The translations under genes and the position numbers were made by a program. This document shows, piece after piece, positions 73 to 27,927 of a stretch of 33,553 bases of DNA. The notes below the pieces were generated by a model, which was given only the letters and a program-made list of their open reading frames with translations, did no database searches and was not told the origin of the DNA. The stretch is from an uncultured Solibacteraceae bacterium (GTDB taxonomy: Bacteria; Acidobacteriota; Terriglobia; Bryobacterales; Bryobacteraceae), in the NCBI GenBank assembly GCA_964608645.1, contig CAZSQK010000092.1, forward strand, positions 1-33,553. The letters run 5' to 3'. Within the stretch, counting starts at the first letter, position 1; each line of letters begins with the position of its first letter.

Positions 73-1452
73 TTAGCCCTGCGGATCGCGCACAGGAGCG
101 AGGTTCGGGTCGCTCGTGCTCGAAAACCAATCGAACAGGACGCCTTCCATTTCGGCGCGCGCGGATGCGTGCTTCGCATCGTCCCAGAGGTTGTACAGTT
201 CGTGCGGGTCCTCTGTCAGGTGATATAACTCGCCGAATTTGGCTTTCGAGTAGTGCACCAGTTTCCACTCCCGCGTGCGCGCCATCTTGATCGTCGGGAA
301 CTCGGAAAACACCGCCGCCTTCCGTTTCGTGTTGGCCACCAGGGACTGGCCCTGCGCCGCCGGCGGCGTGGCCACGCCCAATAACTCGAGCAGCGTAGGC
401 ATCACGTCGACCTCTTCGACCAGTTCGGAACGGACCGCTCCAGCCGGCAGCTTGCCCGGGGCGCGGACGATCAGGGGCGTCCGCACGACGCCGTCGTACA
501 TGTACGAGCCCTTGAACAAAAGACCGTGATCGCCGAGCATCTCCCCGTGGTCGGCATTGAACACCACCACGGTGCGGCTGTCGAGGCCCGACGCCTTCAA
601 CTCGTCGAGAATCGTTCCGATGTATTTGTCGTTCTCGCTGATCATGCCGTAGTAGTACGCCTTGACGCGATCGAGGTCGGCGGCGGTCATCGTTCGCAGG
701 TCGAAGCCGACGCTGTTTTCGATCGCGGCCCTCTGCTGCGGCGGCTTGTTGGCCATCTCGCCCGCGCGCGCGGGCGACTCCGGAAATTTCGCGCCGAGAT
801 ACATCCGGTCGTACGGCGCCGGCGGATTGAACGGATGGTGCGGACGGCGAAAATTCACGTGCAGGAAAAAGGGGTTGGCGCGGTTGGCCTTGAGAAAATC
901 GCGCGCGTGCGAAGCGAAGAACGCCGTCTCGTCGAGGTCGTCCGTCCAGGGCACGGGCGCCGCCTGGAACGGCCCTTCCGCCGGCGGGAATTTCAGGTTG
1001 TGGGAAGCGAGGAATCGGTCATACTCCGGATTGCTCGCCAGGACCTTCTGGAAGCCGCCCGTATACGCCCGCGGCGCGAACGGCATTTCTCCCACGCAAG
1101 CAGTCCGGTAACCCTGAGCATTCAGTGTTTTCGCCAGGGTCTGCTCGGAATCGGGCAGGACATACGAATTGGTGGGCACGCGGTGGACGTGAGGGTAACG
1201 GCCCGTGTGCAAACTGACCCGCGACGGCACACACTGCGGCGCGTGCACAAAATGGTTATCGAAACGCACGCCCTGCGCGGCCAGCCGGTCGGTGTTCGGC
1301 GTTTGCACCACCGGATTGCCGTAACAGCCGAGGCAGTCCGCGCGGTGCTGATCGTTGGTGATGATCAACAGGTTCCACTTGGGATCGGGCGTGGGCGCGG
1401 CCGCCGCCAAACCGGCCGCGGACGCCCCGAGAAATTGGCGTCGTGTCGTCAT
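73..1452 (-). CDS. Sulfatase (arylsulfatase/formylglycine-dependent sulfatase family), Tat/Sec-exported
   Basis: 459-aa ORF. Twin-arginine-like N-terminus (MTTRRQFLGASAAGLAAAA). Sulfatase signature C-x-P-x-R in HAPQCVPSRVSLHTGRYP (the Cys that becomes formylglycine). Conserved N-terminal LIITNDQHRAD metal-binding region. Its start codon overlaps the stop of the upstream TonB receptor by 1 nt (TGATG). Confidence 0.85.
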   Translation of the reverse strand: MTTRRQFLGASAAGLAAAAPTPDPKWNLLIITNDQHRADCLGCYGNPVVQTPNTDRLAAQGVRFDNHFVHAPQCVPSRVSLHTGRYPHVHRVPTNSYVLPDSEQTLAKTLNAQGYRTACVGEMPFAPRAYTGGFQKVLASNPEYDRFLASHNLKFPPAEGPFQAAPVPWTDDLDETAFFASHARDFLKANRANPFFLHVNFRRPHHPFNPPAPYDRMYLGAKFPESPARAGEMANKPPQQRAAIENSVGFDLRTMTAADLDRVKAYYYGMISENDKYIGTILDELKASGLDSRTVVVFNADHGEMLGDHGLLFKGSYMYDGVVRTPLIVRAPGKLPAGAVRSELVEEVDVMPTLLELLGVATPPAAQGQSLVANTKRKAAVFSEFPTIKMARTREWKLVHYSKAKFGELYHLTEDPHELYNLWDDAKHASARAEMEGVLFDWFSSTSDPNLAPVRDPQG

Positions 1453-4400
1453 CAGAAAGCGAACCTCGCGGCAAATTGCGCCTCACGCATCGGCCGCAGG
1501 ACGCTCGTAATCGTCGCGACCGTGTTGGTGTTGGAGATGTTCAGTTGCGGATTGGCGTAATTGGGGTGGTTGAGCAGGTTGAAGATCTCCACCCGGAACG
1601 TCAGCGTCCGCCGCTCGCTGCCGAGCGCGATGGACTTCGCCAGGTTGGCGTCCATATAATTCGTGCCGGGACCGAGGATCGTATTGCGTCCGGCGTTGCC
1701 ATAGCGAGCCAGACCCGTCACCGGATCGGTCGCCGGGACGATGGCGAATGCCCCCGGATTAAACCACTGCTGCGGCGTCCGCTGGCCGCGGGGCAGGTTG
1801 GGACTGATCCCCGCGACGACATCCGGGCGGCTGTTGCTGAGACCGCCGGAACTGGTGAAGCTCGGCGTCAGATAACGGCCGGTGGCGAAGTGCCAGATTC
1901 CGCCGAGCTTCCAGCCGCCGGCAACCGTCTCCAGCGCGCGCGGCAGGTGGTTGAGAAATGGCTGATGCCGCCCGATGGGAAGGTCATACGTCCCGTTGAG
2001 GTTCACGCTGTGACGGCGCACGTAATCGCTGTTGGCCCGGTCGCGTCCAAGGTTCTGCACGTCGATGAGAGCGGATTGCACGTTCTGGCCGACGTCGTCG
2101 ATACCCTTCGCCCAGGCCCAATTGCCCTGGAAGGTCACGTGCCGATAGAACCGGTGGCGGATCTCCATGTTCATTGCATTGTAGATGGAGTCGCCATTGC
2201 TCATACGAAAGTTGATGGTGCTCGTGCCATACGAGGCCGAGTAGCCGCGCACAATGGCATGCGTCACCGGATCGATATAGGCGCCGTTCGCGTTCAGGGA
2301 GCGGAACAAGTGGGTGCCCTTGTTGCCAATGTACGAAAGGGTGAGGCTGGTGTTCCAGCCAAGCTCGCGGTCGATGGTCAGGTTCCACTGCTGGTTGTTC
2401 GGCAGAGCGAAATTCCGCTGGATGCCGGCGGGCGAAACGCTGGCGCTGCCGGCGGCGCTGTAGGGCGCGTTGAGAGTGAGCGCCGGGACGCCGTTGGCGA
2501 TTGCCTGCGAATAGCTGAACGTGCCGGCAAACGGCGGATTTACAGCCACAGTCTGCAACAGATACTGAATCGGGTAGCGTGAGTAGAAGATCCCGTAGCC
2601 GCCGCGCACCACGGTTTTCCCGGCCGCGTGCCATGCGAAGCCGAAACGCGGGCCCCAATTGTTCGTCTGCGTCTCCAGAAGCCGGCGCGGATTGAAGCCC
2701 GCCTGGACATCGCTCATCAACGGGAATTTCCAGTTGCCATTGGCGTCGGTCAGTTTCGCGACCACCGCGGGCAGGTAGCTGGCCACCGGCAGCCTTCCAT
2801 TGTCGCTCGCGACCACGATGCCGCCCGTCGCGATATCGAACATCGCGAGCCGGTTGCGGTCCTCGTATGGATTCAGGAACAGCTCGTGGCGTAAACCCAT
2901 GCTGATAGTCAGGCTCGGCGCAATCCGCCAGTCGTCTTGCACAAAGGACGCCATCTCCGTCTGCTTGAGAAGGATCTTCGGCTTGACCGGCACTTGCTGG
3001 GTCGACGAGGGAACGCCGATCAGAAAATCGGCGAAGGCGTACCCGGTCGAATTGGCCGACGTGGCAGACCCGGAAAATGAGATCTGCCCTCCGGCATTGC
3101 TCTGCTGGAGCGCATTATAGTCGTCGCGGTGCAACTCGTACCCGAATTTGAGGGTGTGTCTGCCCGCCATGCGCGAGACCGTCTCGGAGACCGTGTAAAT
3201 GTTCTGGATCATGGAGAGCGCCGCCTCTCCGAAGCTCGCGGTGTCTCCGAACTTGATGTTGGTGGGCGCGCCCGTGCCGGAGAACGAGATTTGCGGCAAC
3301 AGTGGGATGGCCGGATTGTCCGACGTGAAGCCCTGCATACCGAGCGACGACGCTGTCGGCAATCCCCCAGTAGTGTAGCTGGTCACGTCGCTGAACTTCA
3401 TGGCCCCGAGCTTCAGTTCGCTAACCGTCTTGGGAGTGATCACCGCCGTCCAGGATGCGGTCCCGTTCTGGTTATCGAACGGCTCCTCGCGGCCGGCGCC
3501 GGGAGAGCCGAGCAGGTTCGGGATAAAGCCGCCCGTGTGCGACTGCGTATACCGCAGCCCGACATTCTGATTGCGCGGCAGCGCCTGATCGGCGCGAATG
3601 GTGTATTGGTTGGCGCTGGTGTCGCGGTCGATGTTCGTGACCTGGTTGTTCCCGATGCCCGGCTGCGTCGGGCTGCCGTAGAAGGGCTGGAGCGCGAGGG
3701 CCGTCTTGCTGATGCGGGCGCCGCCGAGGTATTGGTCGACGCGGTTGCCGGGAATATTGGGCCGGCCGCTGATCAGCGGGTCGCGGAGCTGGATCGCTGC
3801 CTGGCCCGGAGTGGCAGTGAGCAGCGCCGAGAAGTCGCCTTTCCACATCGCGTCCAGGGGGACGGCGCTGAAACGCGTCTGCTGCTGGTACTGGCGGTTG
3901 CCCTCGTAATTGAAAAAGAAGAAGCTCCGGTTGCGCCCATCGTAATGTGGCAGGAGCGCCGGTCCCCCCACCGAGCCCCCAAACTGATTGCGTAGAAACG
4001 ACGCGGCGCTGGTGGTGTTGAACGGATCGCGCGCTTCGAACTGCGTGCCGCGGTAATACTCGAACAGGTTGCCGTGGAAGCGGTTCGTGCCGCTCTGCGT
4101 CACCACCGTCACCTGCGAGCCGCCTTGGCCGAACTCGGCCGGCGCCACACCCGAGTACACCTTGAACTCGCGGATGACGTCGATCGAGAGGGGCACGGCC
4201 GACGTGCCCTGGAAGGAGTTCGTATTGGGGGTCCCATCCACCAGGTACGAGTTCCCGTACGTGCGATTGCCGTTCAGCGCGACCGACCCGAAATCGTTAT
4301 TGCCGCCCGTATTGTTATCGACAGAGCCCGCCGACAGCAGCACCAGCTGGTTGAAATCGCGTCCGTTCAACGGGAGCTCCTCGATCTGCTGGCGCACCAC

Positions 4401-4796
4401 GGTTGCGGCGATGGCCGGCGAGTCGGTCTGGATTTCCGCGGCTTCGGCCTCCACGGCGACGCTCGTGGTGACCGCGCCCACCTGGAGCTGGATGTTCCGG
4501 GTGACGGACTCGGAGACATCGATTTTCAGGTTGGCGATGGTAAAGGCGCTGAAGCCGTCTTTGCGGGCGGTGATCGAATAGGAGCCCGGCGGCAGCGGGT
4601 AGAGGACAAAGCGGCCTTCGCCATTGGTGGTCTCGATGACCTTCTGCCCCGTTTCCGCGTTGAGAGCGGTGATTTGAACGTTCGGAATCGAAGCGCCGGA
4701 GGGATCGGTGATGGCGCCGGAAAAACGTCCGGCCGTGCTTTGCGCGAAAACCGTGGCGGCCGCGCAACAGATCACGAGGATGGTGCGGGAAGACAT
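1452..4796 (-). CDS. TonB-dependent outer-membrane receptor, acidobacterial type with N-terminal carboxypeptidase-regulatory-like (Cna-B/CarboxypepD_reg) domain
   Basis: 1114 aa. Signal peptide (MSSRTILVICCAAATVFAQS) followed by a beta-sandwich motif (GAITDPSGASIPNVQITALNAETGQ ... GRFVLYPLPPGSYSITARKDGF). Plug-like region with NGRDFNQLVLLSAG. Long beta-rich body. C-terminal aromatic residue (…ARFAF). Confidence 0.85.
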   Translation of the reverse strand: MSSRTILVICCAAATVFAQSTAGRFSGAITDPSGASIPNVQITALNAETGQKVIETTNGEGRFVLYPLPPGSYSITARKDGFSAFTIANLKIDVSESVTRNIQLQVGAVTTSVAVEAEAAEIQTDSPAIAATVVRQQIEELPLNGRDFNQLVLLSAGSVDNNTGGNNDFGSVALNGNRTYGNSYLVDGTPNTNSFQGTSAVPLSIDVIREFKVYSGVAPAEFGQGGSQVTVVTQSGTNRFHGNLFEYYRGTQFEARDPFNTTSAASFLRNQFGGSVGGPALLPHYDGRNRSFFFFNYEGNRQYQQQTRFSAVPLDAMWKGDFSALLTATPGQAAIQLRDPLISGRPNIPGNRVDQYLGGARISKTALALQPFYGSPTQPGIGNNQVTNIDRDTSANQYTIRADQALPRNQNVGLRYTQSHTGGFIPNLLGSPGAGREEPFDNQNGTASWTAVITPKTVSELKLGAMKFSDVTSYTTGGLPTASSLGMQGFTSDNPAIPLLPQISFSGTGAPTNIKFGDTASFGEAALSMIQNIYTVSETVSRMAGRHTLKFGYELHRDDYNALQQSNAGGQISFSGSATSANSTGYAFADFLIGVPSSTQQVPVKPKILLKQTEMASFVQDDWRIAPSLTISMGLRHELFLNPYEDRNRLAMFDIATGGIVVASDNGRLPVASYLPAVVAKLTDANGNWKFPLMSDVQAGFNPRRLLETQTNNWGPRFGFAWHAAGKTVVRGGYGIFYSRYPIQYLLQTVAVNPPFAGTFSYSQAIANGVPALTLNAPYSAAGSASVSPAGIQRNFALPNNQQWNLTIDRELGWNTSLTLSYIGNKGTHLFRSLNANGAYIDPVTHAIVRGYSASYGTSTINFRMSNGDSIYNAMNMEIRHRFYRHVTFQGNWAWAKGIDDVGQNVQSALIDVQNLGRDRANSDYVRRHSVNLNGTYDLPIGRHQPFLNHLPRALETVAGGWKLGGIWHFATGRYLTPSFTSSGGLSNSRPDVVAGISPNLPRGQRTPQQWFNPGAFAIVPATDPVTGLARYGNAGRNTILGPGTNYMDANLAKSIALGSERRTLTFRVEIFNLLNHPNYANPQLNISNTNTVATITSVLRPMREAQFAARFAF

Positions 4797-8557: not shown

Positions 8558-11512
8558 TCAGGCCTTCGCCTGCTGCGCCTCTTTCGCGTCGAGAATGAAG
8601 GTCATGTGCCGCTCCGCGCCGTCCGGCGACGCGGTGAGCGCCATGGATGAAGAGCGCGCTTCCGACGCCGTCGAATGGAGCCGGACCAGGCCGTCGAAGA
8701 CGGCGAACGTCGAGTTATCGCCCAGGCTGGCGGAATCGAACGAATTCAACACGTCGCCGAACTTTCCGAGACGCATGCGGAACGCGGCGAGTTCGATCGG
8801 CCCCGGAGAGTTGACGATATCCTGCAGCGCCAGGAACGCGTCGGCGATGTCCCGCTCCACGTCGAATAACCGCGCGGCCAATACGCGGATTTCCATCCCG
8901 TTCGAGATGGGACTGGGGTGGACTCCCGCGATCGGCGACACCACCTTCACTGCTCCGGCCGCCATCGCGTCGTCCAGAATCGACCCGGCGTTGACGAAGT
9001 TATTGCCGTTGGCGGCATACAGCTTCTGGACATCGTCGCTCGCGTACAACCATCCCACATCGCTGATGTTCCCCTGACCGAAGTAATTGCCCACGACGAT
9101 CACGCGGAGAATCTCGCGGATGGCGGCGGCCGTGACGGGCGCCGCAAACAGCCGGCGCAGCCCGGTCTCGGTGAAGCGCACGGCGTATTCGGCGGAGATC
9201 GGGCCGTAATCGCCGTTCTTCAACTGCAACATCGGCTGCAATCCTTCGATGGTCGCTCCGGCCGCGTCCAGGCCCAGTTCCTTGGCGAAGAGCATCGCAT
9301 CAGACAGCTCGGCGGGTGTCGTGCGCGAATCGGTGAAGGTCACGTTGTACGAAGCGGACTGGCCGGTGATCACTTCGATGGCATAGGACTGGTCCGCCTT
9401 GTCGAACGTGCTGCCCCCGATGACGCCGCGCGTTTCGCCGATGAAGCGCAGCAGGAAGTTGCTGTGCATCTCTTCCTCGGCTTTGGTCGTTTTCCGCCGC
9501 TGCTGCTTCTCGTCGGTCATGTCGATCGTGGTGAAGACGTTGATCGCGCCGTTTTCGGTCGGCCGGATCTGCTGATCGGCATTGACGATCACCCGATAGG
9601 ACTCCTCATAGCTGAAGTTCTGGTGCCAGCCGGCGATGTTCACCTTGAGCGCGCTCTCACGGCTGATGTTGTGGGTCAGTTTGCCTTCGCGTAACCGCAC
9701 GATATCGGGCTGGTAGTTGGCGAGGACGTCCTGGAAGTCGCCGAGGGCCGCCAGTTTCATGAAGCGCTGTCCCGACGTAACCGGCTGGCCGGCATCGTCG
9801 ACAAGGCGGATTTCCAGATCGATCAAAGCGTCGCGCTCGTCCGATCCGTTGTAGGCGGCATTGATCTTCAGGCTGGCCGTCTGACTGGCCGCCTCTTTGA
9901 GGATCGCGTCGAACTTGTTCCAGAAGGCGTCCTTCGCCTGCACGACCTTCTGCACGATATCGAACGCCTTCTTCAGATCCTTTCCGTTCAGTTGGTCGAT
10001 CTCCCGGTTGATCAACCGGGTGACGAAGTGCTTCGCCTCATCCGTCAGAGTGGTCTTCAGCTTGTCTGGCGTATCGATCGAGCCGAGAATTTGAAAGTAG
10101 TGATCGAGGCCGAACTCGGTCTTGGCTAGTGTAATGACCTTGCGGATCTCTTCGTGGGCGGCATTTTGAACCAGATCCAGCGCGCTATCCACCCGTTTCT
10201 GCAGGGCGTCGAAACTGGGAATGTTGGTTCCCGGGATCTGGCCCAACAGCCAACCCAGAGGGTCCCCGTCCGTCAATTGCCGCACCACGTTCCACAGCGT
10301 GGGGTCAAGCTCGCCCTTGAGCCCGTCCCAGGACGTGAGACTCTTCAGATCCTGCAGCCGCGCGGTCAGTTCCTTGGTCTTGTCGAGAAGCGGATCGAAG
10401 TAGCGGTCGAACAGCGCGATCGCGCTCGTGTCCAGATTGTTGTAACTATCGACGACCTTCTGCAAGCGCCCCAGCAATGCGGTCACTTCCGGCGTCGTGA
10501 GTTGGTCGATCGCTCTCCCGGCATACTTCGCGATGTAATCGCCCGCGAGCCCGTCGAGCCTGGCCTTCAGATCGTCGATGCTCTGTATCTTGCCGGCCTC
10601 GTCGGCGGCGCTGTCGATGAGGTTCAGCCAGTTCTTCGCCCGGACTCCGAGGAGCGCGCCCAGAAACTCCTTGCCCGACTGGGGAAGCCCCTCGGTGTCG
10701 AGCGTCGCCCCCACCGAAACATCCGCGGCGAAACGCAATTCCCGGGTTCGCTTTCTTCGAACGGTCACCTGCGCCCAACCGTCGCTCGATCCGGCGCGGA
10801 CCTCGACGGAGAAGCGTCCCGCCAGGGCCGCGTTCAGGCTCAGCTTCCCCACCACGCTCAGGTCGTACTTCTCGGAGAGCTTCAGCGCCGCGATGTCCAA
10901 CGATTTCGTGCCCTTCAACTCGTAACCCGCGGACGCGTTGACGCCGAATTTCAACGAGCCGCCATATTCCAGCGCGATGACCTCTCCGGCGGCGGGAGGA
11001 CTTTGCACGCCGGACGGCAACCGCATCGCCGTGAAGAACCCGGCGAGCATCGGCGCGAACGGGGTGTTTCGCGGGAAGGAGCGGACGTACACGAATCCAG
11101 CGTCCGCGCCGGCGTCGAGCGTGGCGCCCGCGGTCAGAGCGCCGTACCGGAACGATCCGGCCGCCGAGACCGACGCATTGGCGCCCAGTTGCAGCGTCAG
11201 CAGGAGATTGTCATCCCCCAGAGCGCTCCCCAGCTTGTATTCCGTCGCCAGGTCGGCTGCCGCGGCCGTATTGCCTTTCCACAGCGGCGCAAGTTGGAAC
11301 TTCGCGCCCGCCTGAACACCGATCGCGACCGATCCCGCGTTCCCCAGCGCGATGCTCTGGCCGCCCTGCAATTGAAGCGATGCGTCTGCAATCGGATTGT
11401 CACCAGGCGTCAACGCCTCATTCGGCCCGGCGAGATCCACGTTGACGACAATGGATCCGTTTCCTCCGGACCACAGGGGAATATTGGGCTTGTTGACGGT
11501 GATCGTTTCCAT
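8558..11512 (-). CDS. Large orphan hypothetical protein (984 aa). N-terminal Gly/Ala/Ser-rich amphipathic beta-strand domain plus C-terminal ~700-aa helical region. No signal peptide and no recognisable catalytic motif.
   Basis: Long clean ORF. The six-frame ORF extends to 11614, but the METITVNKPN start at 11512 is preceded by GGAGAAAG 7 nt upstream. Residues 1-~290 show alternating hydrophobic/polar strands (SIALGNAGSVAIGVQAGAKFQLAPL, LLLTLQLGANASVSAAGSFRYGALTAGATL, FSVEVRAGSSDGWAQVTVRRKR). The remainder is rich in D/L/K helical heptad-like segments. No GxxxxGK[ST], HExxH or nuclease motifs seen. Confidence 0.8.
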   Translation of the reverse strand: METITVNKPNIPLWSGGNGSIVVNVDLAGPNEALTPGDNPIADASLQLQGGQSIALGNAGSVAIGVQAGAKFQLAPLWKGNTAAAADLATEYKLGSALGDDNLLLTLQLGANASVSAAGSFRYGALTAGATLDAGADAGFVYVRSFPRNTPFAPMLAGFFTAMRLPSGVQSPPAAGEVIALEYGGSLKFGVNASAGYELKGTKSLDIAALKLSEKYDLSVVGKLSLNAALAGRFSVEVRAGSSDGWAQVTVRRKRTRELRFAADVSVGATLDTEGLPQSGKEFLGALLGVRAKNWLNLIDSAADEAGKIQSIDDLKARLDGLAGDYIAKYAGRAIDQLTTPEVTALLGRLQKVVDSYNNLDTSAIALFDRYFDPLLDKTKELTARLQDLKSLTSWDGLKGELDPTLWNVVRQLTDGDPLGWLLGQIPGTNIPSFDALQKRVDSALDLVQNAAHEEIRKVITLAKTEFGLDHYFQILGSIDTPDKLKTTLTDEAKHFVTRLINREIDQLNGKDLKKAFDIVQKVVQAKDAFWNKFDAILKEAASQTASLKINAAYNGSDERDALIDLEIRLVDDAGQPVTSGQRFMKLAALGDFQDVLANYQPDIVRLREGKLTHNISRESALKVNIAGWHQNFSYEESYRVIVNADQQIRPTENGAINVFTTIDMTDEKQQRRKTTKAEEEMHSNFLLRFIGETRGVIGGSTFDKADQSYAIEVITGQSASYNVTFTDSRTTPAELSDAMLFAKELGLDAAGATIEGLQPMLQLKNGDYGPISAEYAVRFTETGLRRLFAAPVTAAAIREILRVIVVGNYFGQGNISDVGWLYASDDVQKLYAANGNNFVNAGSILDDAMAAGAVKVVSPIAGVHPSPISNGMEIRVLAARLFDVERDIADAFLALQDIVNSPGPIELAAFRMRLGKFGDVLNSFDSASLGDNSTFAVFDGLVRLHSTASEARSSSMALTASPDGAERHMTFILDAKEAQQAKA

Positions 11513-11543
11513 TGTCTTTCTCCTCGCGTTTGCGGCGCTATGG

Positions 11544-11572
11544 ACAATAACACGGGAGAGCCGAAAGATCAA
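11544..11572 (-). promoter_or_regulatory. Candidate sigma70-type promoter for the 984-aa gene
   Basis: Minus-strand -35 TTGATC (plus 11567..11572), a 17-nt spacer, then -10 TATTGT (plus 11544..11549). This lies ~30 nt upstream of the SD/ATG at 11512, inside the 110-bp gap after the GDPD stop. Confidence 0.25.
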
Positions 11573-12430: not shown

Positions 12431-12652
12431 CTACTCGTCGTCGTGCTGGACTTTGTCCCGGCTGAAGACGAATGCGATGAATCCCGCCAGAATCAGGAAG
12501 GGCGGAGCGCCGAGCACCAGGATCCCCGCGTTCATGACGTGCGACCGCGCTTCGTTCTGCGATTTCGCCGTCCGATAACACATCACGCATTGCGCACCGG
12601 CCGGGAAGGCCAGCGCCGCCCACAATGCCGGGATCAACAGCAGACGTCTCAT
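12431..12652 (-). CDS. Small (73 aa) membrane protein with CxxC motif, translationally coupled to cox subunit IV
   Basis: ATGA start/stop overlap with the upstream subunit-IV gene (12649..12652). Signal/anchor peptide, then CVMC, then a C-terminal TM helix (AGILVLGAPPFLILAGFIAFVF). Function unknown. Confidence 0.5.
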   Translation of the reverse strand: MRRLLLIPALWAALAFPAGAQCVMCYRTAKSQNEARSHVMNAGILVLGAPPFLILAGFIAFVFSRDKVQHDDE

Positions 12653-12972
12653 GACGGAGGTCTCATCCCGGGGATGCGGGTGGCGTCGCCGAGGAAGATC
12701 AACATCAGCAGGATACAGAAGATCAGCATCGGAAACAGCGTCAGGAAGAGGCTGAATCGCTCGAATTTCAGGTGCATGAAGTACCCGATAATCAGCGCCG
12801 CTTTGATCACCGAAAGGCCCACCAGCAGCGTCAGCATGGTGATGGTCGGCAATTGCTTATAGCAGAGGAAGACCTCGATCCCCGTCAAGACCAGCAGGAC
12901 GATCCAGATCTTGCCGAACGTCGCGGTGGTCGCCCCTTCGATGTGTTCGACTTGTTCGGTATGCGTGCTCAT
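12649..12972 (-). CDS. Cytochrome c oxidase subunit IV (prokaryotic caa3/aa3-type CoxD/CtaF family)
   Basis: 107 aa (MSTHTEQVEHIEG…). Hydrophobic helices KIWIVLLVLTGIEVFLCY and LTLLVGLSVIKAALIIGYFMHL. GGAGG Shine-Dalgarno upstream. Lies immediately after subunit III. The six-frame ORF 12649..13533 is a spurious 5' extension of this gene. Confidence 0.75.
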   Translation of the reverse strand: MSTHTEQVEHIEGATTATFGKIWIVLLVLTGIEVFLCYKQLPTITMLTLLVGLSVIKAALIIGYFMHLKFERFSLFLTLFPMLIFCILLMLIFLGDATRIPGMRPPS

Positions 12973-12983
12973 GCGTTCCCTCC

Positions 12984-13613
12984 TTACGCTCCCACCCGCG
13001 CCGACATCAGATACACCAGCGGGAAGACAAACATCCAGACCAGGTCGACAAAGTGCCAGTAGAGGCCGCTCACCTCGACGTCTTCCGCCTTGAACTTGCC
13101 GCGCATAATCCCCTGGCAGATGATTCCGAGGTAGATCACGCCGATGATCACGTGGGTCATATGGAGACCCGTGATCGCGAAGAAGGTGCCGCCGAACAGC
13201 GGCACGCCCCATGGGTTCGAAAACGGCGTCACGTGTTCGAGGTTGATCAACCGCATCCATTCGGTGGCGTGCAGGACGACGAAAGCCGCCCCGCCGGCCA
13301 TGGTGGCCAGGATCCATTTGCCAGCCGCGCTGCGGTTGCCGTGGTTCATCGCGTGCACCGCCATCACCATCGTCAGGCTGCTCGATAGCAGGCAGAACGT
13401 CATGACACTCGAAAAAATGATGCTGGGCGAAAAATCGAAGGGCTTCGGCCAGTCCGGGTTGGACACCCGCGAATACGTATAGGCGAACAAAAGCGCCGAG
13501 AACGTCAGCGCGTCCGAAATGATGAACAGCCACATCCCGAACTTCTTCGAATTAGTCGCGTATGGCGACGCGCCGCCATCCCATGCGGACGCGGCGGTGA
13601 CTTGGGACGACAT
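12984..13613 (-). CDS. coxC: Cytochrome c oxidase subunit III
   Basis: 209 aa, multi-TM. Matches haem-copper oxidase subunit III (MWLFIISDALTFSALLFAY…GLYWHFVDLVWMFVFPLVYL). Position in the operon after subunit I. Confidence 0.85.
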   Translation of the reverse strand: MSSQVTAASAWDGGASPYATNSKKFGMWLFIISDALTFSALLFAYTYSRVSNPDWPKPFDFSPSIIFSSVMTFCLLSSSLTMVMAVHAMNHGNRSAAGKWILATMAGGAAFVVLHATEWMRLINLEHVTPFSNPWGVPLFGGTFFAITGLHMTHVIIGVIYLGIICQGIMRGKFKAEDVEVSGLYWHFVDLVWMFVFPLVYLMSARVGA

Positions 13614-13616
13614 CCC

Positions 13617-14261
13617 TTACCCCCAAACGTAAAATAGAACCATCAAATACACCCAGAGCCCATCCAGAAAATGCCAGAAAATCGCGGTGACGTCGATCGC
13701 CGTCCGCTTGGCCGGGCCCAGCCGCAACCGCAGCGCCTGCACGTCGACGTACACCAGCGCCACCACGCCCCCAAACAGATGGAACGCATGGGAAGCGGTC
13801 AGCACATAGAAAAATGAGCTCGCCGGATTGGTCGAAACGTACACCCCGGCTTCCTTCAACACCCGCCAGGCATACGCCTGGCCGACCAGGAAGAGGATGC
13901 CGAGCGCCGTCGCGATTGTCCACCAGAGGTTAAATTTGCTGCGGTCGCCCTTTTTCAGCGCTCGCCGCGAAAAATCCAGCACCACGCTCGATGCCAGCAG
14001 GACGATCGTGTTGACGAACAATACCGGCGGTTTGGGCATGCTCGCCCAATCCTCCGAAAGTCCGCGGCGGACAACGAACGCGCTCGTGAACGCTGCGAAC
14101 ACCATGGTGCTGGCCGCGAGCAGCACGAACAGGCCCGTGAAAGAGGCGCGCCGCGATGACCCGCGCCCTTCCGAGCCGTCGCCGCCGCCCCATCCGCGAT
14201 CCACCGGCGGTGGCGGCGGGCCTTTCAAAATGTCATGTGTGAGGGACCCGGCCATACCCAT
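13617..14261 (-). CDS. Second haem-copper oxidase subunit-III-family protein (paralogue; split/duplicated subunit III)
   Basis: 214 aa. Pro/Gly-rich N-terminus followed by 4-5 TM helices with the subunit-III-like C-terminus (AIFWHFLDGLWVYLMVLFYVWG). Starts 10 nt after the subunit I stop. Confidence 0.7.
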   Translation of the reverse strand: MGMAGSLTHDILKGPPPPPVDRGWGGGDGSEGRGSSRRASFTGLFVLLAASTMVFAAFTSAFVVRRGLSEDWASMPKPPVLFVNTIVLLASSVVLDFSRRALKKGDRSKFNLWWTIATALGILFLVGQAYAWRVLKEAGVYVSTNPASSFFYVLTASHAFHLFGGVVALVYVDVQALRLRLGPAKRTAIDVTAIFWHFLDGLWVYLMVLFYVWG

Positions 14262-17850: not shown

Positions 17851-17897
17851 CAGCCCAAGAGCCGTTACCGTTAATTTTAGGCTAAAGGGGTTTGAAA

Positions 17898-20800
17898 ATG
17901 TCTCTACGTCGAGCCGGACTCTGGATGTGCGCCTTCCTGTTCCCGCTCCTGGCGCCGGCCCAGGAATTTCGCGGAACATTGAGCGGTCATGTCATCGATC
18001 CGCAGCAATCTTCCATTCCCAACGCTAAGATCCTCGCTGTCGAAAACGAGACAGGGGCGAAATTCCAGACTGTCAGCAACACGGACGGGACGTATGTCCT
18101 CCCGTTCCTGCCGCCCGGACCCTACACCGTCAGCGCCGAAGCGCCCGGCTTCAAGAAGTACGTCAACCGCAACATCCGCATCACCACCAACGAGCGCGAA
18201 CAAATCGACATTCACCTGGAAGTCGGCACGATCGATCAGTCGGTGACGGTCTCCGCCGAAGGGTCGATGCTCGAGACGGCTACAGCCTCTACTGGGCAGG
18301 TCATCAATACGCGGCAGATCGAGAATATGCCGATCAACGGCCGCGCCCCGCTGACCCTGGCGCAGTTGGCGTTCGGCGTGACGCCGAACTCGGACCCGAA
18401 ATTCTCCCGTCCGTTCGATAATGCCGGCCCGTCCGGATTTTCGATGGGCGGCGCCCCCAATCAGAGCAACGAGTTGCTGATCGACGGCTCGCCCGACACC
18501 ACGCGCAACTCGCGCGTGGCTTATAACCCTCCGCCCGACGCGGTGCAGGAGATCAAGGTCGAGACCTTCCAGTCGGACGCCGCCTACGGCCACACCGGCG
18601 GCGGCACCGTCAACGTCGTCATGCGCGGCGGCACCAACCAGATTCACGGCAGCGCCTACGAGTTCAACCAGATCAATAAATTCGCCGCCACTCCGTTCTT
18701 CACGAATAAGGCGGGCGGGAAAAAATCGGCGCTGATTTACAACCAGTGGGGATTGACCGCGGGCGGCCCTATTTGGATTCCGAAGGTGATCAAGGGTAAG
18801 GACAAACTGTTCTGGTTCTTCGGATACGAAGGCATCCACGACGCCCTGCCGGAAGCCAGCAATCAGACGGTTCCGACCGCGGCCGAGCGCGCCGGCGATT
18901 TCTCGGCGCTCCTGGCGATCGGCCCGCAGTATACGATTTACGATCCCTTGACCGGTGTCCAGAACGGCGCGCGTGTGCAGCGGACCGCGTTCCCGGGCAA
19001 CATCATTCCGAAGGACCGGTTAAGCCCGATCGCGCAGAACCTGCTGTCGTATGTGCCGCTGCCCAATCAGCCTGGCCTTCGCGATGGCGCGCAGAACTTT
19101 TACACCCCCGCAACCCGTTCCGATGTGTTCGACGGCGAACTCGGCCGCCTCGACTACAACATCAGCGACGTGCACAAGTTCTTCTATAGTTTCCGCCACA
19201 ATTACCGCGTCGAGAACCGCTCGAATCTGTACAGGAACATCGCCACCGGCAACTATCTGAACCGAATCAATTGGGGCTCCACCTTCGACGATGTCTACAC
19301 GCTGTCTCCCACCGCCGTCCTCAACGTGCGCGGCAACTGGACGCGGTTCAACGAGGCCAATGACAAGCCCAGCCTCGGGTTCGACCTCACCAAGGCCGGT
19401 TTCCCCGCTTACATGGCGGCAAGTTCCCAGCGTGCCGTGTTGCCGACGATCGACCTCAACCAGTTCACGGACTTCGGCACCGACGCCGGCGATCGCACCC
19501 CGTACGACACCTTCCAGCTCTTCGGCACCCTGACCAAGATCAAGGGCAACCACACCTTGAAGTTCGGGACCGACCTGCGGGAAGCGCGCGAGAGCTCCGC
19601 CAGCTATGGCAACTCCTCGGGAAGCTTCACCTTCCGCGAAGACTACACCCGCGGGCCGCTCGACAATTCCACGGCGGCCCCGCTCGGCCAGGATCTTGCA
19701 GCGTTCGTTCTCGGCTACCCGACGGGCGGGAACTTCCAGATCAATGCCTTCCGCACGCAACAGGCGAAATACTACGCCTTCTTCGCGCAGGACGATTTCC
19801 GGCCCCGCTCCAACCTCACGTTCAACCTCGGCCTCCGCTTCGAAGGTGACCGGGGGACGACGGAGCGCTTCAACCGCTCCGTGAACGGTTTCGATCCGAA
19901 GGCCGTGAACCCGGTCTCCGCCGCCGCCGAAGCCGCCTATGCCAAGAACCCCGTCACCGGCGGCGTCCCCCCCGGGCAGTTCTCCGCCAAGGGCGGACTG
20001 TTGTTCGCCGGACAGAATGGCAACGAGCTTTACAAGCCGAAGTACGGATACTTCAGCCCGCGTTTCGGTGTCGCATGGAGCCCTGCAGGCGCCGGCAAAG
20101 GCACCGTGGTTCGGGCCGGCTTTGGCGTTTTCGTCTCCTCGATCGGCACCCAGGGCGTCAATCAGCCGGGCTTCAGTTCCACCACCAACGTCCTCAGCTC
20201 CGGAACCACCGGCAACCTGCGCCCGGCGGTGACCCTGTCCAACCCCTTCCCCACCGGCATCACCCCTCCCACCGGTTCGGCTGCCGGATTAGGCACCTTC
20301 CTGGGACAGGGCATCACATTCTACAATCCGAACCCGCTCAACCCCTACTCGATCCGCTGGAACATCGACCTGCAGCGCCAGATCGGGAGTGGCATGGTCC
20401 TCGAGATCGGCTATACCGGCAACCACGCCGTCCATCTGCCCATCGACTACGACTTCAATGCGGTGCCGGCACAGTACTTCAGCACGTCGCCCTTCCGCGA
20501 CCAACCGATCATCGACCGCAACTCGGCGACCAACATCCCGAACCCGTTCTCCGGCCTGCTTCCCGGAACCAATCTGAGCGGCGCCACCGTCGGCTTCACG
20601 CAACTGGCGCGGCCATTCCCCCAGTTCACCGGCATTACCATGTCGGCCACCAACGCCGGCAGTTCCTATTTCCACGCGCTACAGACGCGGTTCGAAAAGC
20701 GTTTCGCGCAGGGCCTCCAGTTCCTCAGCAACTTCCAGTGGGGAAGAACCATCGCGCATGACAACTATTTGAATGCCGGCTTTGGCCCTCTCGAGAAGCG

Positions 20801-21350
20801 CCCGGCCGATATCGATCGTCCCTTCCGCTTCGTCACCAGCCTCAGCTACGAACTGCCCTTCGGCAAGGGCAAGCCGATCCTAGGCTCGCCCTCCGGCTTC
20901 GCGGCGGCAGTCCTCGATCGCATCGTCGGCGGCTGGAACATCAACGGCGTTTACTCGTTCGAAAGCGGCGGCCCCGCCGGCAACTGGGGCGACATCATCT
21001 ACCTCGGCGCCCCCCTCGACTGGACGCCGAACAATCCCGACCGCGCCTTTGACGTGACCGCATTCGACCGGGACACCAACCACCAGCTCAGCAATCACGT
21101 GCGGACGTTCCCGACCCGTTTCGCGGCGCTCCGCCTGCCTTCGACCAATAACGTGGACGCGTCTGTCATCAAGAACTTCCGCATCCATGAACGCCTGGGC
21201 ATTCAGTACCGCTGCGAGTTCTTCAACGCGCTCAACCATCCCGTTATGAACGGTCCGAACCTGTCGCCCACCTCATCGGCATTCGGCACCATCACCAGTG
21301 TGTACAACCAGGAGCGCCACATCCAGATGGCGCTGCGCGTGAGCTGGTAA
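17898..21350 (+). CDS. TonB-dependent outer-membrane receptor, acidobacterial type with N-terminal carboxypeptidase-regulatory-like domain
   Basis: 1150 aa from the ATG at 17898, which is preceded by AAAGGGG. The ORF tool starts at an in-frame TTG at 17892. Signal peptide MSLRRAGLWMCAFLFPLLAPAQE. GTLSGHVIDPQQSSIPNAKILAVENETGA…DGTYVLPFLPPGPYTVSAEAPGF. INGRAPLTLAQLAFG plug-like motif. C-terminal …MALRVSW. Confidence 0.85.
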   Translation: MSLRRAGLWMCAFLFPLLAPAQEFRGTLSGHVIDPQQSSIPNAKILAVENETGAKFQTVSNTDGTYVLPFLPPGPYTVSAEAPGFKKYVNRNIRITTNEREQIDIHLEVGTIDQSVTVSAEGSMLETATASTGQVINTRQIENMPINGRAPLTLAQLAFGVTPNSDPKFSRPFDNAGPSGFSMGGAPNQSNELLIDGSPDTTRNSRVAYNPPPDAVQEIKVETFQSDAAYGHTGGGTVNVVMRGGTNQIHGSAYEFNQINKFAATPFFTNKAGGKKSALIYNQWGLTAGGPIWIPKVIKGKDKLFWFFGYEGIHDALPEASNQTVPTAAERAGDFSALLAIGPQYTIYDPLTGVQNGARVQRTAFPGNIIPKDRLSPIAQNLLSYVPLPNQPGLRDGAQNFYTPATRSDVFDGELGRLDYNISDVHKFFYSFRHNYRVENRSNLYRNIATGNYLNRINWGSTFDDVYTLSPTAVLNVRGNWTRFNEANDKPSLGFDLTKAGFPAYMAASSQRAVLPTIDLNQFTDFGTDAGDRTPYDTFQLFGTLTKIKGNHTLKFGTDLREARESSASYGNSSGSFTFREDYTRGPLDNSTAAPLGQDLAAFVLGYPTGGNFQINAFRTQQAKYYAFFAQDDFRPRSNLTFNLGLRFEGDRGTTERFNRSVNGFDPKAVNPVSAAAEAAYAKNPVTGGVPPGQFSAKGGLLFAGQNGNELYKPKYGYFSPRFGVAWSPAGAGKGTVVRAGFGVFVSSIGTQGVNQPGFSSTTNVLSSGTTGNLRPAVTLSNPFPTGITPPTGSAAGLGTFLGQGITFYNPNPLNPYSIRWNIDLQRQIGSGMVLEIGYTGNHAVHLPIDYDFNAVPAQYFSTSPFRDQPIIDRNSATNIPNPFSGLLPGTNLSGATVGFTQLARPFPQFTGITMSATNAGSSYFHALQTRFEKRFAQGLQFLSNFQWGRTIAHDNYLNAGFGPLEKRPADIDRPFRFVTSLSYELPFGKGKPILGSPSGFAAAVLDRIVGGWNINGVYSFESGGPAGNWGDIIYLGAPLDWTPNNPDRAFDVTAFDRDTNHQLSNHVRTFPTRFAALRLPSTNNVDASVIKNFRIHERLGIQYRCEFFNALNHPVMNGPNLSPTSSAFGTITSVYNQERHIQMALRVSW

Positions 21351-22588: not shown

Positions 22589-25264
<2,676 letters not shown>

Positions 25265-25409
25265 GGATATTTTTATTATAAAGGCAGATCGCGGAGTGCT
25301 GGACGGGCGCGTTCCTGCGGGTACAATGTGGTCATGATCCGCCAGCGATATGCTGGAAGTTGCAAGGCGGAGTTCTATCGTATAACAGTAATGTTTCGGG
25401 AGGATTCTC

Positions 25410-25628
25410 ATGGTCGAATGTCCAGTGTGCGACGGCAAGATCGACGTTGATGAAGAAGACGTCGACGAAGGCGACACCATCAGTTGCGATGAGTGCGGCG
25501 CGGCGCTGAAAGTCATCGGTACGGCTCCCTTGGAATTGGAATCGGCGGAAGAGGCCGAGGAAGAGGACGAGGACGAGGAAGGTTTCCTCGAGGAGGAAGA
25601 GGAAGAGGTGGACGAGGATTGGAAGTGA
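25410..25628 (+). CDS. LysW-family zinc-ribbon amino-group carrier-like protein with extended poly-acidic tail (ends EDWK)
   Basis: 72 aa. GGGAGGA Shine-Dalgarno 7 nt upstream. CPVC-x17-CDEC zinc ribbon, then ALKVIGTAPLELE (compare Thermus LysW …ELEVVGLDPLRLE…EDWGE). Very acidic tail EEAEEEDEDEEGFLEEEEEEVDEDWK. Confidence 0.7.
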   Translation: MVECPVCDGKIDVDEEDVDEGDTISCDECGAALKVIGTAPLELESAEEAEEEDEDEEGFLEEEEEEVDEDWK

Positions 25629-25687
25629 AGCAGCGGACGTGCGCAACGAAACCATGGGCCGCCGCGTCCAAGAGAGCGGAGGGTCAG

Positions 25688-26047
25688 ATGCGGAAAATGG
25701 TGGCAATAGCGGCGGCGGTCCTCCTGATCTCGGTGGCCGGGTCGTTCGCCCAGGAAAAGAAGAAGAAGGGCGAAGAGACCACCCGTTCCGTGCAGGGCGC
25801 AGTCTCCGCGGCTGACGACTCCGCCGTGGTCGGCGCGGTCGTGAAGTTGAAAAACACCAAAACCTTGCAAATCCGCTCCTTCATCACCAAGGAGAACGGA
25901 ACGTATTACTTCCACGAATTGAGCCCGGATGTCGACTACGAGCTGCAAGCCGACTACCAGGGCGCGTCGAGCGGGCCCAAGACGCTCAGCTCTTTCGATT
26001 CGCGGAAAAGCGCGACGATCAATCTGAAGCTGAATCCGAAAAAGTAA
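25688..26047 (+). CDS. Small secreted carboxypeptidase-regulatory-like (beta-sandwich) domain protein
   Basis: 119 aa from MRKMVAIAAAVLLISVAGSFAQ (signal peptide). Motif VVGAVVKLKN…ENGTYYFHELSPDVDYELQADYQG resembles the N-terminal domain of the two TonB receptors in this window. Confidence 0.6.
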   Translation: MRKMVAIAAAVLLISVAGSFAQEKKKKGEETTRSVQGAVSAADDSAVVGAVVKLKNTKTLQIRSFITKENGTYYFHELSPDVDYELQADYQGASSGPKTLSSFDSRKSATINLKLNPKK

Positions 26048-26128
26048 CCGTCCGACCACCGCGTTCAGAACGGGATCGGCGGCGGCATCCCGCCCGGGAG
26101 CGCCCATGCCGGCAGAATGGCGCGCAGT

Positions 26129-27854: not shown

Positions 27855-27927
27855 AGCGGATAGCGGGAATCGAACCCGCAACCAATAGCCCATCGGGCCG
27901 TCGCTCTACCCATTGAGCTATATCCAG
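27855..27927 (-). tRNA. tRNA-like gene, 73 nt, anticodon GAU (Ile) by position but non-canonical anticodon arm; possible pseudo-tRNA
   Basis: Minus-strand sequence CUGGAUAUAGCUCAAUGGGUAGAGCGACGGCCCGAUGGGCUAUUGGUUGCGGGUUCGAUUCCCGCUAUCCGCU. Acceptor stem pairs 6/7 (C1·C72 mismatch, U2·G71). Good D-arm (GCUC-AAUGGGUA-GAGC). Perfect T-arm (GCGGG-UUCGAUU-CCCGC). The anticodon stem ACGGC/GCUAU has one mismatch, and the loop CCGAUGG lacks the universal U33. CCA is not encoded. Confidence 0.55.

What the first reader, a model, noticed from the sequence alone, without database searches (positions are those of the whole stretch)
8558..11512. 984-aa cytosolic orphan protein with a pore-former-like Gly/Ala-rich beta N-terminal domain and no recognisable family
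Every other large ORF in the window can be placed in a family from motifs alone; this one cannot. Residues 1-~290 are low-complexity but clearly structured. They form repeated amphipathic beta-strand segments, alternating hydrophobic and small/polar residues, rich in G/A/S, with no signal peptide. That pattern is typical of membrane-inserting or pore-forming beta domains and of some effector/abortive-infection modules. The remaining ~700 aa are Asp/Leu/Lys-rich helical with no P-loop, HExxH, nuclease or protease motifs. The gene has its own good Shine-Dalgarno (GGAGAAAG) and a plausible own promoter (-35 TTGATC / -10 TATTGT). It sits at the 3' end of a long minus-strand housekeeping run (cox operon, then GDPD), so it looks like a single-gene insertion of a novel function. 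Candidate for an undescribed single-protein toxin, defence or membrane-remodelling system.
Basis: partly seen in the sequence, partly recalled or inferred. Interest (0 to 1): 0.7.

Follow-up and report, generated by a model that had tools for sequence, protein, structure and literature searches.

The report
Uncharacterised 984-aa Acidobacteriota protein family
The gene is real and fits no described protein family, but it is not an orphan: it belongs to a large, conserved, stand-alone family found mostly in soil Acidobacteriota, with no support for a toxin or defence role and only a weak whole-length resemblance to animal lipid-transfer proteins.

Summary
The ORF at 8558-11512 (-) is a real gene of 984 aa. 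It has typical GC3, dN/dS of about 0.1, and a start supported by homologues. It matches nothing in Pfam, NCBIfam, PADLOC, PHROGs or PDB sequences. It is not an orphan: a family profile finds 815 50%-identity clusters, nearly all 930-1040 aa with the same architecture. Labelled members are mostly Acidobacteriota MAGs, plus one labelled Opitutaceae and one Acidimicrobiia. No neighbour is conserved, and none was found on plasmids, phages or viral contigs.

An AlphaFold2 model built from 113 diverse sequences (pLDDT 86, pTM 0.73) shows four parts:
- a sheet of long amphipathic strands (1-275);
- a 16-helix domain (280-556);
- a second sheet (562-728);
- a helical/mixed domain (733-984).

Best guess (about 0.3): a cytoplasmic, non-enzymatic binder of lipid or another hydrophobic ligand. 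The toxin/defence reading is not supported.

The parts
8558..11512 (-). CDS of the 984-aa protein (stop codon 8558-8560). The longer GTG-initiated ORF reaches 11614, but the ATG at 11512 is the supported start.
   Evidence: ORF list. Homologues start at the aligned Met. GC3 0.82. dN/dS 0.11-0.17.
10688..11512 (-). Residues 1-275: Gly/Ala/Ser-rich beta domain. About 14 strands, including two of 22-25 residues (178-199, 216-240), a short helix pair at 83-97 and an 11-residue helix at 152-162. Hairpin tips 113-121 and 200-213 have low confidence although their sequence is conserved.
   Evidence: AF2 model m7637228134e8. Composition. Family-wide amphipathic alternation. Conservation by block.
9845..10675 (-). 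Residues 280-556: all-helical domain of about 16 helices, ending in a 47-residue helix (510-556). It begins with the family's most conserved motif, GLPxSGKEFLGALLGVxAKNWLN (residues 275-297).
   Evidence: AF2 model, pLDDT mostly 85-97. Consensus. Block conservation.
9329..9829 (-). Residues 562-728: second beta domain with four long antiparallel strands (636-651, 657-674, 679-694, 714-728) and short helices.
Evidence: AF2 model.
8561..9316 (-). Residues 733-984: C-terminal, mostly helical domain with three strands (772-780, 953-961, 968-974). It holds D940, the only polar residue that is nearly invariant across the wider family.
   Evidence: AF2 model, pLDDT 93-98. Conservation over 190 full-length members and in A2.
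11516..11523 (-). Shine-Dalgarno-like GGAGAAAG, 4 nt upstream of the ATG.
   Evidence: Sequence read directly.
11544..11572 (-). Possible weak promoter, TTGATC-17 nt-TATTGT, in the 110-bp gap after the GDPD gene.
   Evidence: Hexamers and spacing are present. The match is below the consensus scanner's threshold. No terminator-like site lies on the minus strand between GDPD and this gene, so co-transcription with GDPD is not excluded.

Best explanation
The gene encodes a soluble, cytoplasmic, non-enzymatic protein of about 106 kDa from an undescribed family centred on Acidobacteriota. I infer that it binds, and perhaps shuttles or stores, a lipid or other hydrophobic ligand. The hydrophobic faces of its two large amphipathic beta-sheets would do this, held by two helical scaffold domains. 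This is the way the beta-barrel / alpha-solenoid / beta-sheet module of large lipid transfer proteins (MTP, lipovitellin, apoB) works.

Shown here: the gene is real and constrained, the family is large, the four-part architecture is confidently modelled, catalytic motifs are absent, there is no signal or TM segment, and the gene is genomically autonomous.

Inferred only: the hydrophobic-ligand function and any evolutionary link to LLTPs.
For: - The high-confidence model (pLDDT 86.2, pTM 0.73) has the order beta (1-275), alpha (280-556), beta (562-728), then a C-terminal domain.
- Human MTP is a half beta-barrel (21-297; 13 strands around a central helix), an alpha domain (298-603; 17 helices) and a C-terminal sheet domain (604-884) (PMC6717300). 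The model has about 14 strands with a helix at 152-162, then 16 helices.
- With this model, Foldseek against 350,542 PDB chains ranks LLTPs 1-4, 6 and 9: MTP 6i7s_G E=0.016 and 6i7s_H E=0.047, lipovitellin 1lsh_A E=0.053, apoB100 9ea7 E=0.071 and 9e9r E=0.37, bee vitellogenin 9ens_A E=1.2. The alignments span 900-1250 columns. Apart from one unrelated hit at rank 5 (cyclic glucan synthase 8rfe_A, E=0.13), the non-LLTP hits start at about E=1.
- The strands show strict hydrophobic/polar alternation conserved across the family.
- Near-invariant positions in 190 full-length members are almost all Gly, Pro, aromatic or aliphatic. Only D940 is polar. No catalytic motif is present. This argues against an enzyme.
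- There is no signal peptide or TM segment, and the protein is acidic (pI 5.1).
- Every region is under purifying selection.
Against: - No Foldseek hit reaches E<=0.001. Probabilities are 0.14 or less and TM-scores 0.08-0.09.
- There is no sequence signal. Pfam Vitellogenin_N is not hit by the window protein or by 90 family members. hhalign of the family profile against human MTP and against 19 mammalian MTPs gives probability 0.2-0.3. The MTP profile was shallow.
- LLTPs are secretory-pathway proteins with conserved disulfides. This protein has no signal peptide and no Cys.
- The region that would correspond to the LLTP A-sheet is mostly helical here.
- No lipid-metabolism gene recurs next to the gene.
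- I could not inspect the coordinates, so the existence of a hydrophobic cavity is untested.
Confidence: 0.3

Rival explanations
1. Latent beta-pore-forming or membrane-inserting effector (toxin, abortive-infection or cell-suicide protein). The long amphipathic N-terminal hairpins would insert into a membrane after a trigger, and the helical C-terminal two-thirds would act as an auto-inhibitory or sensor module.
For: - Very long amphipathic hairpins (178-240 and 102-147) have tips that are conserved in sequence yet low in confidence. The 102-147 hairpin was modelled differently by the two AF2 runs.
- The family is Cys-poor (median 1 Cys).
- The gene is stand-alone with variable neighbours and apparently patchy occurrence. 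There were 36 species genomes, all MAGs, in a scan whose pattern matches about half of the known members.
- Two copies lie near IS elements.
Against: - PADLOC, Pfam and NCBIfam give no real hit.
- No activating protease, immunity gene or defence-gene enrichment was seen among 89 neighbours.
- The gene is absent from plasmid, phage and IMG/VR collections.
- Uniform purifying selection and a fixed length of about 970 aa across deep divergence are unusual for arms-race genes.
Confidence: 0.12
2. Non-membrane structural or scaffolding protein, for example a component of a cytoplasmic assembly, a storage-granule coat or a cytoskeletal element. The sheets and helical domains would serve only for folding and oligomerisation.
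For: - Conserved positions are structural (Gly, Pro, aromatic), with no catalytic motif.
- The protein is large, multi-domain, acidic and soluble.
- No partner genes are conserved.
Against: - There are no coiled-coil or repeat signatures and no internal repeats by hhalign.
- No structural match to known scaffolds was found.
- Nothing positive points to an assembly.
Confidence: 0.2
3. Enzyme of a new fold whose active site is not evident from sequence motifs.
For: - Within the closer subfamily (44 sequences) several polar residues are invariant: E214, D369, R457, K464, R499, H614, N625, H630, Q647, D940.
Against: - Across 190 full-length members only D940 stays above 95%, and A2 has no invariant column.
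- No known catalytic motif or nucleotide-binding loop is present.
- No enzyme fold appears among the structural hits.
Confidence: 0.1

Closest known systems
Large lipid transfer protein (LLTP) superfamily: microsomal triglyceride transfer protein, lipovitellin/vitellogenin, apoB (PDB 6I7S, 1LSH, 9ENS, 9EA7; Pfam Vitellogenin_N PF01347)
   Same: - These are the top Foldseek hits, with alignments running the whole length.
- The domain order and near-identical boundaries agree: beta about 1-280, alpha solenoid about 280-600 with 16-17 helices, then a beta-sheet.
- The N-domain has 13-14 strands with a helix near residue 150.
- Both have amphipathic sheets and no catalytic site.
   Different: - No Pfam or hhalign similarity was found.
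- This protein has no signal peptide and no disulfides, and is cytoplasmic and bacterial.
- The last 250 residues are helical rather than an A-sheet.
- Lipid binding is untested.
Outer-membrane beta-barrel proteins (TonB-dependent transporters, porins; e.g. BtuB1 8BLW, Cir 2HDF, chitoporin 5MDO)
   Same: - They share a large curved antiparallel meander of long (16-25 residue) amphipathic strands.
   Different: - Identity is 3-9%.
- Only about 18% of the protein is matched.
- There is no signal peptide and no C-terminal aromatic beta-signal (the protein ends ...EAQQAKA).
- About 60% of the protein is helical, and Pfam OMP models are not hit consistently (2 of 46 members at E about 0.008).
- This is resemblance of sheet geometry, not membership.
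Gasdermins and other beta-pore-forming toxins (MACPF/CDC, aerolysin/ETX-MTX2)
   Same: - An N-terminal beta domain of about 250-290 aa is followed by a helical region, as in eukaryotic gasdermins.
- Both have amphipathic hairpins, lack a signal peptide and are Cys-poor.
   Different: - There is no sequence hit (PADLOC or Pfam).
- No neighbouring protease is present.

Membership tests
LLTP superfamily (MTP / vitellogenin / apoB) | Sequence match to the conserved N-terminal lipid-transfer module (Pfam Vitellogenin_N PF01347) or profile-profile similarity to an LLTP | tested here: not met
   Pfam gave 0 hits for the window protein at E<=10. Vitellogenin_N is not among the families listed for 44 + 46 members. 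hhalign of A2 against human MTP gave prob 0.3, and against 19 mammalian MTPs prob 0.2. The MTP profile was shallow (85-100% identity), so sensitivity was low.
LLTP superfamily (MTP / vitellogenin / apoB) | Significant 3D similarity to solved LLTP structures | tested here: inconclusive
   [not shown]
LLTP superfamily (MTP / vitellogenin / apoB) | Domain order: N-terminal (half) beta-barrel around a helix, two-layer alpha-helical domain of about 17 helices, then beta-sheet lipid-binding domain | tested here: inconclusive
   The secondary-structure order and boundaries agree for the first three parts: 1-275, 280-556, 562-728 here against 21-297, 298-603, 604- in MTP. The final 250 residues are helical, not an A-sheet. 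The 3D topology could not be inspected.
LLTP superfamily (MTP / vitellogenin / apoB) | Secretory-pathway protein with signal peptide and conserved disulfides | tested here: not met
   No signal peptide is seen in any of 14 inspected members. The window protein has no Cys, and the family median is 1.
LLTP superfamily (MTP / vitellogenin / apoB) | Binds or transfers lipid in a hydrophobic cavity | not testable with these tools
   This needs the model coordinates (cavity analysis) and biochemistry.
Gasdermin / beta-pore-forming toxins | Sequence or HMM match (Pfam Gasdermin, MACPF, aerolysin/ETX_MTX2; PADLOC bGSDM) | tested here: not met
   No hit in Pfam or PADLOC.
Gasdermin / beta-pore-forming toxins | Fold match to a solved pore-former | tested here: not met
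   [not shown]
Gasdermin / beta-pore-forming toxins | Genetic linkage to an activating protease, sensor or immunity gene | tested here: not met
   No conserved neighbour across 36 loci. In the Pfam census of 89 neighbours, no family occurs in more than 2 loci.
Gasdermin / beta-pore-forming toxins | Forms membrane pores; toxic when activated | not testable with these tools
   Requires expression and liposome assays.
Known anti-phage defence systems (PADLOC-DB, NCBIfam antiphage models) | HMM match to a defence protein and location in defence or mobile islands | tested here: not met
   The best matches are noise: PDC-M43B E=0.031 (11.5 bits) and DS41_1 E=0.036 (13 bits against a cutoff of 370). 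Neighbours are mostly metabolic or housekeeping genes. No plasmid, phage or IMG/VR copies were found.
Outer-membrane beta-barrel proteins | Sec signal peptide, closed barrel as the main body, C-terminal beta-signal | tested here: not met
   There is no signal peptide. Only 140-180 of 984 residues align. The C-terminus is helical or disordered and ends in ...QQAKA.

The most novel reading that the evidence does not exclude
This family is a prokaryotic, cytoplasmic counterpart of the LLTP lipid-transfer module (beta-barrel + alpha-solenoid + beta-sheet), whether a distant homologue or an independent invention. That module is so far regarded as an animal secretory-pathway invention. If so, some Acidobacteriota (and a few Verrucomicrobiota or Actinomycetota) would have a large soluble carrier for bulk lipid or another hydrophobic cargo.
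Probability: 0.15. Interest if true: 0.85.

Novelty: categorically new. Interest (0 to 1): 0.5.

Why it matters
Acidobacteriota are among the most abundant soil bacteria, yet most of their large conserved proteins have no known function. This family has at least 815 sequence clusters, a fixed length of about 970 aa and a confident four-domain model, with no significant sequence or structural relative. It is therefore a well-defined target. Solving it would either add a new fold and architecture with a new function, or reveal a bacterial analogue or ancestor of the vitellogenin/MTP/apoB lipid-transfer module. The work also removes an attractive but unsupported label (pore-forming toxin or defence gene) before anyone spends experiments on it.

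Tried and rejected
- **Curated libraries.** Pfam, NCBIfam, PADLOC and PHROGs on the protein, and Pfam on 44 + 46 family members, gave nothing recurrent.
- **PDB by sequence and by two family profiles.** Only designed helical bundles turned up, at E>=0.018.
- **First AF2 model (44 sequences).** It was poor (pLDDT 66.6, pTM 0.40) and its Foldseek hits were noise. It was superseded by the 113-sequence model.
- **Internal duplication.** hhalign between seven sub-blocks gave probabilities under 9%. Rejected.
- **Conserved operon partners.** All-against-all clustering of ORFs in 36 loci found none beyond close relatives.
- **Mobile carriage.** There were no plasmid, phage or IMG/VR hits.
- **Empty-site test via ThuA homologues.** The two closest long-contig homologues (83% identity) share no synteny with the window, so the test was uninformative.
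- **MTP homologue search for a deep LLTP profile.** It returned only mammalian sequences, so the profile-profile test had little power.
- **Rfam and tRNA scans of the window.** Only a tRNA-Ile was found.
- **Literature searches.** Searches for bacterial LLTP-like proteins or Acidobacteria pore-formers found nothing relevant.
Full report

The minus-strand ORF is present. Homologues begin at the aligned methionine (consensus MxxIxxxKxxIPLW), so the ATG is the supported start. GGAGAAAG lies 4 nt upstream of it. TTGATC-17 nt-TATTGT sits in the 110-bp gap after the GDPD gene, but it falls below the consensus scanner's threshold.

GC3 is 0.82, like the other genes in the window. dN/dS is 0.11 against a 75%-identical homologue and 0.17 against a 65%-identical one, and all four regions are constrained. 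This is a real, expressed-type gene.

- Residues 1-290 are G/A/S-rich (36%).
- There is no Cys, no TM segment and no signal peptide.
- There is no Walker A, HExxH, HNH or CxxC motif.
- The flanks are as described: ThuA-like and M1 peptidase genes on the plus strand, GDPD and cytochrome oxidase genes on the minus strand.

**2. It fits no described family, but it is not an orphan.**

Pfam, NCBIfam, PADLOC, PHROGs and PDB sequences give no hit or only noise. Family profiles against PDB, and Pfam scans of 90 members, also give nothing recurrent.

The large protein collection, however, holds at least 149 relatives. About 120 of them are full length (about 970-1000 aa) at 36-75% identity, and all are unnamed or 'hypothetical'. 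An exhaustive profile search finds 815 cluster representatives at E<=1e-3 and 253 at E<=1e-30. Nearly all of the 150 listed are either full length with end-to-end matches or obvious contig-end fragments.

Labelled members are Acidobacteriota MAGs: Bryobacterales, Vicinamibacterales, Blastocatellia/Pyrinomonadaceae, Acidobacteriaceae and Terriglobia. One is labelled Acidimicrobiia and one Opitutaceae.

A scan of one genome per GTDB species found 36 loci, all MAGs. The single peptide pattern used matches only about half of the known full-length members. Prevalence is therefore underestimated, but the gene does not look like a core gene.

**3. Genomic context.**

I clustered all ORFs from 36 loci plus the window. 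No neighbour is shared beyond close relatives. In a Pfam census of 89 immediate neighbours from 30 loci, no family occurs in more than two loci. There is no protease, immunity gene or defence enrichment.

Annotated contexts of nine further copies are equally unrelated. They include a tRNA synthetase, a hydrogenase, nos genes and TonB-dependent receptors. Even the 75%-identical homologue has different neighbours.

Two copies sit near IS elements. None is on a plasmid, phage or IMG/VR contig.

The gene is therefore an autonomous single-gene unit. Whether it was 'inserted' in this window cannot be decided. The closest ThuA homologues on long contigs share no synteny with the window, so no empty site was available. 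In a quick tree, MAGs labelled with the same order fall in different clades. This is compatible with paralogy or transfer, but MAG labels are unreliable.

**4. Structure.**

A first model from 44 sequences was poor (pLDDT 66.6, pTM 0.40). A second model from 113 sequences going down to 19% identity is good (pLDDT 86.2, pTM 0.73). It has four parts:
- **Residues 1-275.** A beta domain of about 14 strands, two of them 22-25 residues long, with a helix at 152-162.
- **Residues 280-556.** About 16 helices, ending in a 47-residue helix.
- **Residues 562-728.** A second sheet of four strands of 16-18 residues.
- **Residues 733-984.** A mostly helical domain.

The N-terminal strands show strict hydrophobic/polar alternation that is conserved across the family. 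The tips of the long hairpins (113-121, 200-213) have low confidence although residues 181-300 are the best conserved stretch of the protein.

Across 190 full-length members, the positions above 95% identity are P166, G185, G196, G232, G289, L563, G581, A588, F593, G628, G655, Y722, L736, G770, Y776, F936 and D940. This is a structural pattern, not a catalytic one. No internal repeats were detected.

**5. Fold comparison.**

Foldseek against all PDB chains gives no hit at E<=0.001. Its best hits nonetheless form one coherent set:
- MTP: 6i7s_G at E=0.016 and 6i7s_H at E=0.047
- lipovitellin: 1lsh_A at E=0.053
- apoB100: 9ea7 at E=0.071 and 9e9r at E=0.37
- bee vitellogenin: 9ens_A at E=1.2

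Each is aligned over 900-1250 columns. Apart from one unrelated hit at E=0.13 (cyclic glucan synthase 8rfe_A), other hits start near E=1.

The published MTP domains are a half beta-barrel at 21-297 (13 strands around a central helix), 17 helices at 298-603, and a sheet domain from 604 (PMC6717300). They parallel the first three parts of the model closely.

Several results count against a true relationship:
- Foldseek probability is 0.14 or less and TM-scores are 0.08-0.09.
- There is no Pfam Vitellogenin_N hit.
- hhalign gives probability 0.2-0.3 against human MTP and against a shallow MTP alignment.
- There is no signal peptide and there are no disulfides.
- The tail is helical where LLTPs have the A-sheet.

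**6. Interpretation.**

The best-supported reading (confidence about 0.3) is a soluble, non-enzymatic protein whose amphipathic sheets, supported by helical scaffolds, bind a lipid or other hydrophobic ligand. It would work like the LLTP module, without being shown to be a member of that superfamily.

The rivals are:
- a structural or scaffold protein (0.2);
- a new-fold enzyme (0.1).

The remainder is unassigned.

**7. Novelty and verdict.**

The family is in no curated library and has no significant solved structural relative, so it lies outside every known kind I could test. What is established is a well-defined 'dark' family, not a mechanism.

Interest is moderate (0.5). Such families are common in Acidobacteriota. 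This one stands out for its size, its confident model and the LLTP-like lead. If that lead were confirmed (probability about 0.15), it would be surprising, because that module is regarded as an animal invention.

Noticed in passing
window 22589-26107 (-): The pyruvate dehydrogenase E1-like ORF is 1172 aa. Pfam Transketolase_N starts only at residue 412 and PDH_E1_M lies at 770-983. This implies either an N-terminal extension of about 290 aa relative to typical AceE of about 890 aa (the AceE length is from my own knowledge) or an over-extended ORF call in GC-rich DNA.
   Followed up: no
window 12649-14261 (-): Two adjacent COX3-family genes (12984-13613 and 13617-14261) are followed by a small hydrophobic ORF of about 106 aa (MSTHTEQVEH..., about 12649-12969) that looks like an oxidase subunit IV. 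A 246-bp gap separates it from the GDPD gene, so GDPD and the target gene need not belong to the cox operon.
   Followed up: partly
window 1452-4796 (-) and 17892-21350 (+): Two paralogous TonB-dependent-like receptors of about 1100 aa carry CarboxypepD_reg + OMP_b-brl_4 domains. Similar genes recur near family members in other loci (L041, L047). They are common in Acidobacteriota, so this is probably chance.
   Followed up: no
window 27855-27927 (-): A lone tRNA-Ile (GAT), not next to an rRNA operon. It is the only Rfam or ARAGORN hit in the window.
   Followed up: no
L034 (10001-12855) and P0257 / L046 (7001-9892): Family members sit in MAGs labelled Acidimicrobiia (Actinomycetota) and Opitutaceae (Verrucomicrobiota). 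This could be horizontal transfer out of Acidobacteriota or mis-binning.
   Followed up: no
L039 (804-3046, 13913-15082) and L042 (224-1552, 20044-23003): Two divergent copies lie near mobile-element genes. In L039 these are an IS1595 transposase, a resolvase and a DDE_Tnp_1 gene. In L042 they are IS110 and DDE transposases and a weak terminase-like gene. Most other copies have no such neighbours.
   Followed up: partly
L008, L009, L030 (about 9177-9712 and 13143-14108): In the three Acidobacteriaceae MAGs the gene is flanked by the same two small ORFs, 151 aa upstream and 167-211 aa downstream (clusters c10 and c11). In one Vicinamibacterales-type group (L004, L005, L026) a protein of about 250-276 aa precedes it (c6). 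These are lineage-specific neighbours, not family-wide partners.
   Followed up: no
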